Part shown: positions 59,481 through 63,677 of the stretch, piece after piece
Position numbering within the stretch: position 1 is the first letter of the stretch
Layout: each line of letters starts with the position of its first letter
NCBI GenBank assembly: GCA_964508175.1
Contig: CAZDRU010000029.1
Coordinates: 18,510 to 82,509, forward strand
Source of the DNA: an uncultured Dehalococcoidia bacterium
GTDB taxonomy: Bacteria > Chloroflexota > Dehalococcoidia > Lucifugimonadales > CAZDRU01
Direction: 5' to 3'
Length of the DNA: 64,000 bases
Position numbers and translations under genes: made by a program
The notes under the pieces: generated by a model
Database searches by the model: none
What the model saw: only the letters and a program-made list of their open reading frames with translations
Told to the model about the DNA's origin: nothing

Positions 59481-60695
59481 TTGATTGACGGAAATGGAGG
59501 AACTCCTATATCAAAAGGAGCAATCCTCATTGAAGACGATACTATTATTGATGTTGGGGAGAAAGGGAAAATTAAAATTCCCGAAAATGCCGAAGTTGAA
59601 AAAATATATTTTGAGAACGAAACTTTACTTCCTGGTCTAGTTGATTGCCATGTACATCTAAATGGATTTGGTGATGGAAGATTTGGTGATGATCTTGCAT
59701 TATTACCTGACGAAATTCTTACATTACAAGCAGCTAAAAATGCTCGCTCCCATCTGTATTCAGGAGTTACAACCATTCGAGACCTTGGTTCAAAACATAA
59801 AACCAGTCTTCTTCTAAGAAAAGCTATTGAAATGGGAATTACAGTTGGACCAAGAATGATTCTGTGTGGTAGGCCTGTAGCAATAATAGGAGGCCATATG
59901 CACTATTTTGGGATCGAAGCAACAGGAGTAGATGAAGGTCGCAAAGCAGTCCGACAACTTATGAAAGATGGGGCTGATATGATTAAAATTACTGCTACTG
60001 GAGGTAGTACCAGAACTTCTTTTCCTTTTAGATCTTCTTTCAATCTTGACGAGTTAAAAGCCATTATTAGTGAAGCACATAAATTTGGCAAACATACTGC
60101 TGCACATTTAGGAAGTTCTGAAGCAATGTTAAACTGCCTAAAAGCAGGAGTTGATACTATAATACACTGCGGATATCACGAACCTGATGGAACTATAAAA
60201 TTTAGAAAAGAAGTGGCTGATAGAATTGTTAAACAAGAAGTTTTTGTTAATCCAACATTATCTCAATCCTTTATTCCTTATATGGATGGCAGAATTACAG
60301 ACAAAAAACTAATTGAAACGAAACTAATAAAAGAAAAAAAAGATGGCAAATTCAGTAAACACGTTGCAAACATCCAAAGAACGGTAGATATGGGAGCAAA
60401 ATTAGTCGCTGGCTCTGATTCATCATGGAGCACATATCCTATGGGAAGTTTTCAATATGAAATAATAGCTCATGTAGAAGATATTGGACTTTCGCCAATG
60501 GAAGGAATCGTTTCTGCAACTCGTGATTCTGCAAAATCTCTATGGATTAATGATACAGTGGGCACATTAGAAAAAGGTAAAAAAGCCGACATTTTAATTG
60601 TAAAAGGTAATCCTGCTCAAAACATACATAACCTTTGGAATGTAGTTACAGTATTTCTAGGAGGAAAAGAAGTTAAGAAAAATGGAAGTCTGTAA
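59481..60695 (+). CDS. metal-dependent amidohydrolase (imidazolonepropionase/prolidase-like subgroup)
   Basis: LLPGLVDCHVHL (HxH), IKITATGG, HTAAHL, IIHCGY, AGSDS. The annotated TTG start probably truncates the N-terminus (see findings). Confidence 0.85.
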   Translation: MIDGNGGTPISKGAILIEDDTIIDVGEKGKIKIPENAEVEKIYFENETLLPGLVDCHVHLNGFGDGRFGDDLALLPDEILTLQAAKNARSHLYSGVTTIRDLGSKHKTSLLLRKAIEMGITVGPRMILCGRPVAIIGGHMHYFGIEATGVDEGRKAVRQLMKDGADMIKITATGGSTRTSFPFRSSFNLDELKAIISEAHKFGKHTAAHLGSSEAMLNCLKAGVDTIIHCGYHEPDGTIKFRKEVADRIVKQEVFVNPTLSQSFIPYMDGRITDKKLIETKLIKEKKDGKFSKHVANIQRTVDMGAKLVAGSDSSWSTYPMGSFQYEIIAHVEDIGLSPMEGIVSATRDSAKSLWINDTVGTLEKGKKADILIVKGNPAQNIHNLWNVVTVFLGGKEVKKNGSL

Positions 60696-61522
60696 TGTTA
60701 AATGAAACTCAATTAAAACACTTAGAACTTTTTGGATTTGTAATACTAAAAAATATTTTTACCACCAAAGAATTAGAAATACTTCGCAGCGAATTTGAAA
60801 TTGCCTGCAAAAACAACGAACTAAAACAAGGTCCTTACGATAACACATATCGTTATATGAATATGCTGGGAAAAGATACTCCTTTCTATGCTTCTTTAAT
60901 CGAAGATCCTCGATTTTATAAACCGGTAACTCAATGGTTTGGAGAAAAATCTTTTGGATTTGAAATACATTCATATCGCTATGTTAATGACACAAGATGG
61001 CATTACAATGACGGTTCCCCAAATATTTATGGATATGGAGCAAAGTATCAATTTCCACTATATGAACCTGTTACTGCACAAACAGGAGCTTTAAGATTTT
61101 TACCAGGATCTCACAAAGATCCTTGGCAATCAGAATTAAGACAATGGTGGCCTTTTGAGGATTTTAAAACTCAAGAAAAACATAATACCTCTCAAGCAGC
61201 TATGGAAATAATTAATAGTATCCCTTATTCTCCAGCTGAATGTGAATTAGGTGATGCTGTTTTATTTGACTTGCGAATTATGCATTCAACATGGGGAGGA
61301 GGCATCGATCGAAATGTAAGTTGCATTTCATACTTTCATTATCCAGAATCTCCTGAAGAATTCGATACCATGAAAAAAATCATACCAGCTCACTGGGGAA
61401 GAAAAGATAGATGGGACCAAGAAGAATTTGATTACTTTTTTTCAAATCCTAATAAATCTCCAATACGAGAAAAATGGATAGATTCATATGAGGAACTTTT
61501 AAAACTAAGTCGTAATATTTAA
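60695..61522 (+). CDS. PhyH-like Fe(II)/2-oxoglutarate dioxygenase family protein (divergent)
   Basis: N-terminal LELFGFVILKNIFT..EL, RWHYNDGSP region, LRIMHSTWGG. 1-nt overlap with the upstream stop (TAATG). Weaker match than the PhyH at 21352. Confidence 0.65.
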   Translation: MLNETQLKHLELFGFVILKNIFTTKELEILRSEFEIACKNNELKQGPYDNTYRYMNMLGKDTPFYASLIEDPRFYKPVTQWFGEKSFGFEIHSYRYVNDTRWHYNDGSPNIYGYGAKYQFPLYEPVTAQTGALRFLPGSHKDPWQSELRQWWPFEDFKTQEKHNTSQAAMEIINSIPYSPAECELGDAVLFDLRIMHSTWGGGIDRNVSCISYFHYPESPEEFDTMKKIIPAHWGRKDRWDQEEFDYFFSNPNKSPIREKWIDSYEELLKLSRNI

Positions 61523-61535
61523 TTCAATATTTTTT

Positions 61536-63677
61536 CTATTTTGAAGGCTCGATTATATCTTTAGGTTTTCGACGACCATTACTGCTAACTTTACCATTCA
61601 ATAAATTAGCATCTATTCCTTTTTTCTTCTTTGAAATCTTTGAATTAAAAAGCGCTTTAAGATCCTCTCCCTCAACACTCTCGTGAATAATTAAATATTC
61701 TGCAATTTGACTAAGTTTACCATGATTGTCTAAAAGTACAGACTTCGCCTTTTTATATGCATCAGACATAATAGCATTTACTTCTTGATCAATAGCTTTA
61801 GCAATATCATCGCCATAATCTTTTTCTTCAGAAATTTCTCTTCCAAGAAATACTAATTCTTCTCTCTTCCCATAAACTCTGGGACCCAATTTATCAATTC
61901 CCATTTCGCTAACTATTTCAATATCTATTGATTGCTTAGAAGCTCCTTGTAAAATATCCATAATATTTGTTTCAGGTTCTTTTTTCGTAATGTATTTCTT
62001 TTTATTAGTCGTAACAAAAAGTAAATCATCGCCAAATACTCGTATGCTTTTTACTTTCTTCCCTTTTATCCAATCTAAAAAGGTACTAATAGAGATTTTT
62101 TCTTCATCAAAATTATCAAAATAACTCATACTATATTTAGTTACCATTTGACGAGCAATTCTCGTAGCTTGTTCAAGATCGTTGCTAGGACCAGTAGTAA
62201 TTTCTCCAAAATGAATTTCTTCTGCTCCTCTTCCTCCAAGAGCTGTTGCTATCATCCCGATAAACTGGTCTCTAGTCCAAAGATGTCTTTCCTCTTCAGG
62301 AACCATTCGAGTATAACCACCCATCATACCTCTAGAAATTATAGAAATTTTCTGTGGTGGATCTGCATTAGGAAGAGTCCATGCAACTAAAGCATGACCT
62401 GCTTCATGGTAAGAAGTTATTTCTTTCTCTTTTTTACTAATAACTCTACTTTTTCTTTCGGGGCCTGCTATTACTCGATCTACTGCCTCTTGAAGTTCAT
62501 CTGAACCTATTTGAGATTTTGATTTTCTCGCAGCAAGTATTGCTCCTTCATTAATTAAATTAGCAAGATCTGCTCCACTAAAACCCGGTGTAATTTTCGC
62601 TATTAATTCTAAATCCAATGAACTTTCAAGTGGTTTTCCTTTTGAATGAACTTCTAAAATTGCTTGTCTGCCTTTTACATCTGGTTGATCAATAACAACT
62701 CTTCTATCAAATCTGCCAGGCCTTAATAAGGCAGGGTCTAAAATGTCAGGTCTATTTGTTGCAGCTATTAATATAATATTAGTGGTTGTATCAAATCCAT
62801 CCATTTCAACTAAAATCTGATTAAGAGTTTGTTCTCTCTCATCATGTCCTCCTCCCAAACCAGCACCACGATGTCTTCCTACAGCATCAATTTCATCAAC
62901 AAACAATATACAAGGTGAATTTTTTCTTGCTTGTTCAAACAAATCCCGTACTCTTGAAGCCCCAACTCCTACAAACATTTCTACAAATTCACTTCCGCTA
63001 ATAGAAAAGAAATTAACTCCAGCTTCTCCTGCAATAGCACGTGCAAATAATGTTTTTCCAGTTCCAGGAGGCCCAACTAAAAGAACTCCTTTCGGTATTT
63101 TTGCACCTAAATCTAAGAATTTTTGTGGATTTTTTAAAAATTCAACAATTTCGGCAAGTTCCTGTTTTGCTTCATCAGCTCCAGCCACATCAGAAAAGGA
63201 TACTGAAGGAGTATTAGGGTTGAAAGCCTTTGCTTTACTTTTTCCAAATCCTAAAGCATTATTATGGCCTCCTTGAGCTTGTCTCATCATAAAAAACAAC
63301 AATCCCCCAAAGAAAATCAATGGCAAAAAATTTAAAAATATCCCAAAGAATGTACCTAATCCGCTAGATCCTTTAACTTCGACATCTACTCCATTAGGTC
63401 CAATCTTAACTCCTGCATTTTGTAGTAATTCATAAATACTAGTTCCCGATTCTTTTTTTGCTGAATATTCTCTGCCATTTAAATTTACAACTTTCAGGTC
63501 ATCTCCTTTAACTATAATCTTTTGTATTTGACCAGTCTTTGCCAAATCAATTACTCCTGCTAACGTATAAGGTTCAGGACTACTTAATTTGGGAACAAGA
63601 TTAACCAGAATTATTGCAACTACTACAATGATTACAACGTAAACGATGCTATTTCTAAAAAGTTTCTTATCTTTCAC
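61536..63677 (-). CDS. ftsH: ATP-dependent zinc metalloprotease FtsH, with a 77-aa insertion in the M41 protease domain
   Basis: TM1, inter-TM domain, TM2, Walker A GPPGTGKT, Walker [31 protein letters not shown], zinc site HEAGHA. 713 aa, longer than usual. Confidence 0.95.

What the first reader, a model, noticed from the sequence alone, without database searches (positions are those of the whole stretch)
61893..62123. FtsH carries an internal copy of its own inter-TM (extracytoplasmic) domain inserted into the cytoplasmic protease domain
Canonical FtsH reads ...ARxMVTxxGMS-xx-LGPxxxG...FLGR. Here, MVTKYSMS and [18 protein letters not shown] are separated by 77 extra residues ([77 protein letters not shown]). 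An ungapped eye alignment of insert residues 10-62 with N-terminal residues 37-89 ([53 protein letters not shown], nt 63411-63569; that domain's full extent is 63375-63569) gives 19 identities in 53 positions, including GDDL, Y-x-x-KKE and LQ-x-A. The N-terminal segment is the domain between TM1 and TM2, normally outside the cytoplasm. The copy would therefore sit on the cytoplasmic protease ring near the substrate exit or oligomer interface. The DNA-level similarity is low, so the duplication is old and the frame is maintained, which suggests function. I am not aware of this architecture having been described.
Basis: seen in the sequence. Interest (0 to 1): 0.7.

Follow-up and report, generated by a model that had tools for sequence, protein, structure and literature searches.

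The report
FtsH protease with nested second N-domain
This membrane protease (FtsH) of an uncultured marine Chloroflexota bacterium carries a second, old copy of its small outside-the-cell domain inserted into its inside-the-cell protease ring; many relatives keep this undescribed variant under selection, yet some very close relatives have cleanly lost it.

Summary
ORF 61536-63677 (-) encodes a 713-aa FtsH with all catalytic motifs intact. Residues 519-595 (nt 61893-62123) interrupt Peptidase_M41 between GMS and LGP.

The insert is homologous to the FtsH extracytoplasmic N-domain:
- BLASTP against its own N-terminus gives E 1e-10.
- Pfam FtsH_ext's best stretch lies on the insert.
- Profile-profile comparison gives E 1e-32.
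- The AlphaFold model's best PDB matches are FtsH periplasmic domains (4v0b: TM 0.91, rmsd 1.2 A).

It is not an artefact. The exact protein is on 13 contigs. 41 of the 120 best homologues, and 18 species-level Chloroflexota MAGs, carry it at the same site.

The duplication is old and arose once, and the insert is under purifying selection (dN/dS 0.05-0.18).

New here: presence is labile. Syntenic orthologues that are 91% identical differ by exactly this domain.

The insertion point corresponds to the AFG3L2 M666-G671 loop, an intersubunit loop at the centre of the protease ring. I infer six cytoplasmic copies forming a dispensable accessory collar. No paper describing this was found. Verdict: a new variant of a known kind.

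The parts
61536..63677 (-). ftsH ORF, 713 aa (GTG start; stop codon included)
   Evidence: Pfam: Peptidase_M41 E 1e-59, AAA 1.9e-46, AAA_lid_3 2e-11, FtsH_ext 7.6e-8. PDB: 7tdo FtsH E 4e-179.
63573..63668 (-). TM1 (residues 4-35)
   Evidence: Kyte-Doolittle 19-residue window up to 3.15. Helix 3-31 in the AF2 model.
63366..63572 (-). Original extracytoplasmic N-domain (residues 36-104), the paralogue of the insert
   Evidence: AF2 elements H39-47, E51-57, E60-65, E70-74, H81-87, E97-102, pLDDT about 86-90. Aligns with the insert.
63282..63365 (-). TM2 (residues 105-132)
   Evidence: Hydropathy 2.25. Helix 108-134.
62490..63086 (-). AAA+ ATPase module (residues 198-396): Walker A GPPGTGKT at 202, pore loop MFVG at 234, Walker B DEID at 261, second region of homology at 307
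62124..62447 (-). Peptidase_M41, part before the insert (residues 411-518), with zinc motif HEAGH at 424-428 and NDLE at 499
   Evidence: Pfam stretch 411-518 matches profile positions 1-108 of 191. Motifs.
61893..62123 (-). Nested FtsH_ext-like domain (residues 519-595), the finding
61632..61892 (-). Peptidase_M41, part after the insert (residues 596-682). Residues 598-621 are the counterpart of the AFG3L2 'central protease loop'.
   Evidence: Second aligned stretches 595-682 and 592-683 against T. maritima FtsH. pLDDT below 50 at 603-617. AFG3L2 description.
61539..61631 (-). Basic, disordered C-terminal tail (residues 683-713)
   Evidence: pLDDT below 50 at 685-713

Best explanation
SHOWN. 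An ancient single duplication placed an FtsH_ext-type domain (alpha-beta-beta-beta-alpha-beta, about 77 aa) in frame into a loop of the M41 protease domain of FtsH, between GMS and LGP. This happened in an ancestor of a large uncultured Chloroflexota (Dehalococcoidia/SAR202-type) radiation. The host protein keeps every ATPase and protease motif. The insert has no flanking membrane segment, so it is cytoplasmic. It folds like the periplasmic N-domain. It evolves at the same rate as the real N-domain and under purifying selection. Very close relatives have nevertheless lost it cleanly, several times.

INFERRED. The N-domain natively sits as a loop insert between TM1 and TM2, so I expect its two ends to lie close together, which would make it easy to nest in a surface loop. 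[quoted passage not shown] Six copies would therefore cluster around the sixfold axis on the membrane-distal face, the same symmetry the domain has outside the membrane (the E. coli N-domain structure 4v0b is deposited as 'hexameric N-domain'). The most likely role is a self-associating accessory collar that reinforces or caps the protease ring around its axial opening. It would modulate hexamer stability or access to the axis rather than catalysis. That would explain both the selection on it and its dispensability.
For: Homology and fold. Exact site shared by 42 proteins. 18 species-level MAGs, all Chloroflexota. Exact protein on 13 contigs. Single origin: the 42 inserts are monophyletic against 69 N-domains in the full data and in 23 of 25 bootstraps; 41 of 42 have another insert as nearest neighbour. 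Insert against own N-domain 31.1% identity, against other proteins' N-domains 30.9%. Selection: dN/dS 0.05-0.18 in six locus pairs; mean pairwise identity 40.0% against 39.4% for the N-domain. Cytoplasmic location. Active enzyme by motifs. [quoted passage not shown] Shared conserved signature GxDL...(S)RKE in both copies despite their different compartments, which argues for an intrinsic role in fold or assembly. Dispensability: P0022 (with insert) and P0054 (without) are 91.4% identical and sit in syntenic loci of one sample. Further cases.
Against: No hexamer model or coordinates could be obtained. Whether the domain points out of the ring or into the chamber, and whether the six copies touch, is therefore untested. 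A preprint reports that the isolated bacterial FtsH N-domain (FtsH-IMS) is a dimer in solution (abstract), so ring formation is not a given. Repeated loss shows that the proposed stabilising role is not essential. No conserved neighbouring gene points to a function. Whether a second, insert-less ftsH coexists in the same genome, which would allow mixed hexamers, is unknown; none lies in the 64-kb window or within about 6 kb in 18 loci.
Confidence: 0.5

Rival explanations
1. Docking platform. The cytoplasmic copy is a binding module for a partner, such as an adaptor, a substrate class or a cytoplasm-facing SPFH/NfeD-type scaffold. This would parallel the periplasmic domain, which sits with HflK/C in the E. 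coli FtsH-HflK/C complex.
For: The solved periplasmic domains that match the insert model include those in FtsH-HflK/C complexes (7wi3, 9cz2). One insert-bearing ftsH (L023) lies two genes from a Band_7 (SPFH)-NfeD pair. Several positions are conserved in the inserts but not in the N-domains (the Y/F before G-x-D-L-L, R-S-R-K-E, P-I-S).
Against: The Band_7/NfeD neighbourhood is seen in only 1 of about 24 loci. No neighbour is specific to insert-bearing genes. The most conserved motifs are shared with the extracytoplasmic copy, which cannot meet the same partner.
Confidence: 0.2
2. Tolerated passenger. This is a self-folding domain in a permissive loop with little or no function. It persists because only perfectly clean deletions are viable, and it is lost whenever such a deletion occurs.
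For: Repeated precise loss among close relatives, with no other change in the protein. The insertion does not disturb any catalytic motif.
Against: dN/dS of 0.05-0.18 and retention of fold and motifs at only about 40% mean identity across a deep radiation show long-term purifying selection on the sequence itself. However, selection against misfolding alone could produce part of this signal.
Confidence: 0.2
3. Allele exchange rather than loss. Insert-bearing and insert-less alleles (or paralogues) coexist in the clade and are swapped by homologous recombination through the highly conserved flanks. This, not independent deletions, would produce the patchy distribution.
For: L001 and L002 show mosaic divergence inside ftsH: dS 0.6-0.7 in the 5' half and 0.08-0.12 in M41 plus insert. 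Insert-bearing and insert-less proteins interleave in the core tree. P0011, from the same sample as P0022 and P0054, sits in a different gene neighbourhood.
Against: The P0054/P0022 pair shows no local excess of divergence around the junction; the 45 residues after it are identical. Inserts within the subclade look vertically inherited (P0022 against P0011, 63% identity).
Confidence: 0.25
4. Assembly, frame or gene-calling artefact, or chance similarity.
For: None found.
Against: The exact protein occurs on 13 independent contigs. There are 41 homologues with the insert at the same site and 18 GTDB species. Profile-profile E is 1e-32. The fold matches.
Confidence: 0.01

Closest known systems
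FtsH periplasmic / intermembrane N-domain (Pfam PF06480 FtsH_ext; PDB 4v0b, 2muy, 4m8a, 4q0f, 7wi3)
   Same: Same fold and same order of secondary-structure elements. Recognisable by sequence profile. Present as six copies per hexamer.
   Different: The known domain lies between TM1 and TM2 outside the cytoplasm. This copy has no flanking membrane segments and is nested inside the cytoplasmic M41 protease domain. The protein also keeps its normal N-domain.
Canonical bacterial FtsH (E. coli, T. maritima 7tdo/2ce7, T. thermophilus 2dhr, A. aeolicus 4ww0)
   Same: Two TM segments, AAA+ module and M41 protease with all motifs. About 60-68% identity to insert-less Chloroflexota FtsH.
   Different: No solved FtsH has anything at this site. 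In the two alignments printed, the match stops at query residue 518 and resumes at 592-595, continuing at the adjacent chain residue.
m-AAA protease AFG3L2 'central protrusion' (extended central protease loop, residues 673-695)
   Same: A lineage-specific elaboration of the same small region at the centre of the protease ring, where it affects hexamer stability and substrate hand-over.
   Different: AFG3L2 has a short loop extension that points up into the chamber. Here a whole autonomous domain is inserted a few residues upstream, in the loop equivalent to N667-V670.
Nested accessory domains in other AAA+ machines (from my own knowledge, not tested here): HslU I-domain, ClpB/Hsp104 M-domain
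   Same: An autonomous domain inserted in a loop of a core domain of a hexameric AAA+ machine, displayed six times around the axis.
   Different: Those are inserted in the ATPase module and are not duplicates of another domain of the same protein. This one is in the protease domain and is a paralogue of the protein's own N-domain.

Membership tests
FtsH (AAA+ / M41 membrane metalloprotease), whole protein | Pfam AAA, AAA_lid_3 and Peptidase_M41 above their curated cut-offs | tested here: met
   158.2 bits against a cut-off of 21.2; 43.7 against 27.2; 202 against 29.9
FtsH (AAA+ / M41 membrane metalloprotease), whole protein | Walker A, Walker B, pore-loop FVG, second region of homology, HEXXH zinc motif and the downstream acidic ligand region | tested here: met
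   GPPGTGKT at 202, DEID at 261, MFVG at 234, [18 protein letters not shown] at 307, HEAGH at 424, NDLE at 499
FtsH (AAA+ / M41 membrane metalloprotease), whole protein | Two N-terminal transmembrane segments flanking a small extracytoplasmic domain | tested here: met
   Hydrophobic segments 4-35 and 105-132 only. The domain between them is modelled with pLDDT about 86-90.
FtsH (AAA+ / M41 membrane metalloprotease), whole protein | ATP-dependent proteolysis as a hexamer | not testable with these tools
   Needs biochemistry or a multimer model
FtsH_ext (PF06480), the insert | Pfam match at or above the gathering score | tested here: inconclusive
   The insert alone scores 24.3-24.5 bits against a cut-off of 25.5. 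The whole protein scores 32.9 bits, with the best stretch on the insert, residues 520-566. 22 of 35 inserts match at E <= 0.01.
FtsH_ext (PF06480), the insert | Homology to bona fide FtsH N-domains | tested here: met
   hhalign E 1.1e-32 and 3.1e-32, probability 99.9%. BLASTP E 1e-10. tblastn cross-hits of the query N-domain onto inserts in L003, L005 and L006.
FtsH_ext (PF06480), the insert | The alpha+beta fold of the solved periplasmic domains | tested here: met
   Foldseek: 2muy E 1.9e-6; 4v0b TM 0.91, rmsd 1.2 A; 7wi3; 4m8a. Model pLDDT 72.9 alone and 75-90 in context.
FtsH_ext (PF06480), the insert | Position between TM1 and TM2, outside the cytoplasm | tested here: not met
   No hydrophobic segment near it: the highest 19-residue hydropathy for windows starting at residues 500-602 is 0.53. 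It interrupts the cytoplasmic M41 domain.
Intein or other self-splicing / mobile in-frame element | Conserved nucleophile at the first residue and at +1, a terminal His-Asn, and endonuclease or Hint blocks | tested here: not met
   The boundary residues vary (Y/D/E/F... and G/D | L/K) across 42 sequences. The only Pfam family matched is FtsH_ext.

The most novel reading that the evidence does not exclude
The six cytoplasmic copies assemble into a second 'crown' on the membrane-distal pole of FtsH, mirroring the extracytoplasmic one. This crown would be functional, either gating the axial opening of the protease ring or docking the protease to a cytoplasm-facing scaffold or adaptor. The natural orthologue pairs with and without the insert (91% identical) would then be a ready-made experiment on what the FtsH N-domain does intrinsically, independent of the membrane and of HflK/C.
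Probability: 0.2. Interest if true: 0.75.

Novelty: new variant of a known kind. Interest (0 to 1): 0.58.

Why it matters
FtsH is the universal membrane-anchored AAA+ protease. The role of its small extracytoplasmic domain is still debated: assembly, HflK/C binding or substrate routing. Here nature has moved a copy of that domain to the other end of the machine and into another compartment. It has kept that copy under selection across a large, abundant and almost uncultured bacterial radiation (Dehalococcoidia/SAR202-type Chloroflexota), and has removed it cleanly in some very close relatives.

This gives three things. First, a previously undescribed FtsH architecture. Second, evidence that the loop at the centre of the protease ring, a hotspot for SCA28 mutations in human AFG3L2, can accept a whole domain. 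Third, natural matched pairs for testing what the domain contributes by itself.

It is a structural variant of a known enzyme, not a new system.

Tried and rejected
- **Genome scan with the full 35-sequence insert alignment** failed for lack of a conserved stretch. A 9-sequence subset worked, but only through one narrow motif, [ILF]EVYG[ND]DLL. The window's own protein (IRVFGDDLL) does not carry that motif, so 18 species is a lower bound.
- **Census with the search of protein representatives** was uninformative. I think this is because full-length FtsH proteins collapse into 50% clusters; the listed hits look mostly like gene fragments and N-terminal pieces. It did reveal FtsH_ext-like modules in other proteins.
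- **Sequence-only search of the PDB with the insert profile** is weak: 2muy/4v0b E 0.14, with spurious ETV6 repeat hits at about 0.01. The link to solved structures therefore rests on the fold search and on within-clade profiles.
- **Expected monophyly of insert-bearing proteins** in the core tree was not found (0 of 30 bootstraps). This led to the finding that insert presence is labile.
- **Gene conversion between the N-domain and the insert** is rejected (31.1% against 30.9% identity).
- **Intein or mobile element** is rejected.
- **Second ftsH nearby**: none in the window or in L001-L018. Whole-genome paralogy could not be tested.
- **Conserved neighbours specific to insert-bearing genes**: none.
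- **Junction microhomology** in L021: nothing obvious by eye. The repeat-finder call failed on strand syntax and was not repeated.
- **L019 (Planctomycetales)** is a chance match: no FtsH and no ORF there.
- **The T. maritima crystal-structure paper** is not held, and model coordinates are not exposed. The position in the hexamer therefore rests on the AFG3L2 description.

Full report
**1. What is in the sequence**

ORF 61536..63677 on the minus strand encodes a 713-aa protein. Pfam finds FtsH_ext, AAA, AAA_lid_3 and Peptidase_M41. The M41 match is split into two stretches. The quoted 77 residues are exactly residues 519-595, nt 61893-62123.

Every solved FtsH aligns up to query residue 517 or 518. 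In the two alignments printed, the match resumes at 592-595 and continues at the adjacent residue of the solved chain (T. maritima 7tdo S521|E522). So this is a clean insertion between the conserved GMS and LGP.

All catalytic motifs are present: Walker A and B, the MFVG pore loop, the second region of homology, HEAGH and NDLE. Only two hydrophobic segments exist (residues 4-35 and 105-132). For windows starting at residues 500-602, the highest 19-residue hydropathy is 0.53. The insert therefore stays in the cytoplasm with the protease domain.

**2. Is the similarity to the N-terminal domain real?**

Yes.
In 1000 shuffles the best equivalent match averaged 9.2 and never exceeded 14.
- BLASTP of the insert against the protein's own N-terminus gives E 1e-10.
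- Pfam's best FtsH_ext stretch in the whole protein is on the insert (520-566). The insert alone scores 24.3 bits, just under the 25.5 cut-off. 22 of 35 inserts from relatives hit PF06480, and no other family recurs.
- A profile of 42 inserts against a profile of the N-domains of the same proteins gives probability 99.9%, E 1.1e-32 over 77 columns. Against the N-domains of insert-less FtsH it gives E 3.1e-32.
- An AlphaFold model of the insert (pLDDT 72.9) has the order helix-strand-strand-strand-helix-strand. Its best PDB matches are all FtsH periplasmic domains: 2muy E 1.9e-6; 4v0b TM 0.91 and rmsd 1.2 A; 7wi3; 4m8a; 4q0f.
- In the full-length model, the N-domain (H39-47, E51-57, E60-65, E70-74, H81-87, E97-102) and the insert (H530-538, E542-548, E551-556, E561-565, H572-579, E585-590; pLDDT 75-90) have the same order of elements.
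- A sequence-only search of the PDB with the insert profile is weak (E 0.14 for 2muy/4v0b). The link to solved structures therefore rests on fold.

**3. Not an artefact, and not private to this genome**

The exact protein is on 13 contigs in NCBI and ENA. A TARA Oceans mesopelagic sequence is in its 90% cluster.

Among the 120 best homologues, 41 carry a 76-83-aa insert at the same place; with the window protein that makes 42. The other 79 have two residues there.

A scan of one genome per GTDB species, using one narrow insert motif, found 18 species. All are Chloroflexota MAGs labelled Dehalococcoidia, SAR202, Chloroflexota/Chloroflexi or, in one case, Chloroflexia. They come from marine, lake and other environmental samples. 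This is a lower bound, because the window's own protein does not carry that motif.

**4. Age, origin and selection**

- Nucleotide identity between the two copies in the window is 47%.
- Insert against own N-domain is 31.1% identical. Insert against other proteins' N-domains is 30.9%. So there is no ongoing conversion between the two copies.
- In a joint tree the 42 inserts form one clade apart from 69 N-domains, in the full data and in 23 of 25 bootstraps. 41 of 42 inserts have another insert as nearest neighbour. This indicates one origin.
- The insert diverges as fast as the true N-domain: 40.0% against 39.4% mean pairwise identity.
- dN/dS of the insert is 0.05-0.18 in six informative locus pairs. 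This is purifying selection.
- Both copies share the signature GxDL...(S)RKE.

**5. An unexpected twist: presence is labile**

Insert-bearing proteins are not monophyletic in a tree of the core domains.

The sharpest case is P0022 (701 aa, with insert) against P0054 (615 aa, without). They are 91.4% identical over 615 aligned positions, including both termini. Both come from ENA sample ERZ26167216, on different contigs with the same gene order: abhydrolase, ftsH, an 85-aa ORF, greA, DUF3090..., inositol phosphatase, CNNM, His_Phos (tilS follows in the longer L020). DNA identity between the loci is 79-86%. I read these as orthologous loci of two related species that differ by exactly this domain: GMS-DA[86 aa]LGP against GMS-ER-LGP.

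P0022's insert is most like those of its subclade (63% to P0011). The simplest reading is therefore loss in the P0054 lineage.

P0050 and P0072 (no insert) form a separate group in the same subclade. P0117 (with insert) is 86% identical in the core to a whole group of insert-less proteins. So there were several independent clean losses.

Alternatively, alleles may be exchanged by recombination. L001 and L002 show a mosaic ftsH, with dS 0.6-0.7 in the 5' half and 0.08-0.12 in M41 plus insert.

Either way the domain is selected but dispensable.

**6. Where it sits, and how it probably works (inference)**

The site is T. maritima S521|E522. By my own alignment of the conserved FGM...G motif, using AFG3L2 residues recalled from memory, this corresponds to human AFG3L2 between M666 and G671.

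In the AFG3L2 cryo-EM study (bioRxiv 10.1101/551085):
[quoted passage not shown] The Chloroflexota insert therefore emerges at the centre of the floor of the protease ring, close to the sixfold axis.

The N-domain natively sits as a loop between two membrane helices. I therefore expect its ends to be close together, which suits nesting in a loop. Outside the membrane it occurs as six copies around the same axis (4v0b is deposited as 'hexameric N-domain').

I therefore propose a second ring of six copies on the membrane-distal face. It would act as an accessory collar or cap that modulates hexamer stability or access to the axial opening. The conserved features shared by copies in two different compartments favour an intrinsic assembly role over a compartment-specific ligand.

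This is not shown. No multimer model or coordinates were available. A preprint reports that the isolated bacterial FtsH N-domain (FtsH-IMS) is a dimer in solution.

**7. Rivals**

- A docking platform for a cytoplasmic partner. One locus has a Band_7/NfeD pair nearby, but this neighbourhood is not conserved.
- A tolerated passenger domain. Repeated loss fits this. Low dN/dS argues against it, although selection against misfolding alone could explain part of that signal.
- Allele or paralogue exchange as the cause of the patchy distribution.

No second ftsH lies in the window or within about 6 kb in 18 loci. Whole genomes could not be searched.

**8. Comparison with what is known, and novelty**

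The protein is a bona fide FtsH by every feature testable here. The insert is a member of the FtsH_ext fold and homology group, but it fails the family's defining context, which is a position between TM1 and TM2 outside the cytoplasm.

No solved FtsH-family structure has a domain at this site. Searches of the held literature for FtsH with Chloroflexi, Dehalococcoidia, SAR202, PF06480 or domain insertion, plus an FtsH evolution review, found no description.

The nearest analogues are the short central-loop extension of m-AAA proteases and, from my own knowledge, nested domains such as the HslU I-domain.

I classify this as a new variant of a known kind, of moderate to good interest.

Noticed in passing
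P0138, P0154, P0162, P0163, P0231; no window coordinates: The FtsH_ext-like module also occurs outside FtsH, in other membrane or secreted proteins. P0138 and P0154 each carry two tandem copies. By my reading of the sequences, P0162 places it after a PspC-like N-terminus and between two hydrophobic segments, and P0163 after a PKD-like region. All score higher with the N-domain profile than with the insert profile. The small domain therefore seems to be shuffled between proteins.
   Followed up: partly
L021:4852-5112(-), L020:11903-12160(-), L022:10167-10427(-); also L004, L011-L017: A conserved ORF of about 85 aa with no Pfam match lies convergently just downstream of ftsH in many loci, whether or not ftsH has the insert. 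It is absent downstream of ftsH in the window.
   Followed up: partly
L001 against L002, ftsH gene: Synonymous divergence is mosaic within the gene: dS 0.62-0.73 in the N-domain and AAA regions, but 0.08-0.17 in M41 plus insert. This suggests a recombination breakpoint inside ftsH between related lineages.
   Followed up: no
L023:10962-13187(-): In one insert-bearing locus (P0011), a Band_7 (SPFH) gene and an NfeD gene lie two genes downstream of ftsH. This locus is not syntenic with those of the closely related P0022 and P0054 from the same sample. It could be a paralogous locus or a rearrangement.
   Followed up: no
P0127: A 563-aa predicted protein starts with a region that looks unrelated to FtsH (SIR2-like by eye, not scanned). 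It continues with the C-terminal half of an insert-bearing FtsH of the P0117 type and ends in a further unrelated tail. It is probably an assembly or gene-call chimera.
   Followed up: no
L019:6001-6117: The only non-Chloroflexota hit of the genome scan (a Planctomycetales MAG) is a chance match. There is no FtsH similarity and no ORF on that strand.
   Followed up: yes
window 59481-61522(+): Two plus-strand ORFs (404 aa and 275 aa) converge on the 3' end of ftsH, leaving only 13 bp between the stop of the 275-aa ORF and the ftsH stop codon. The greA gene that follows ftsH in several relatives (L020, L021, L024) is not at this position in the window.
   Followed up: no
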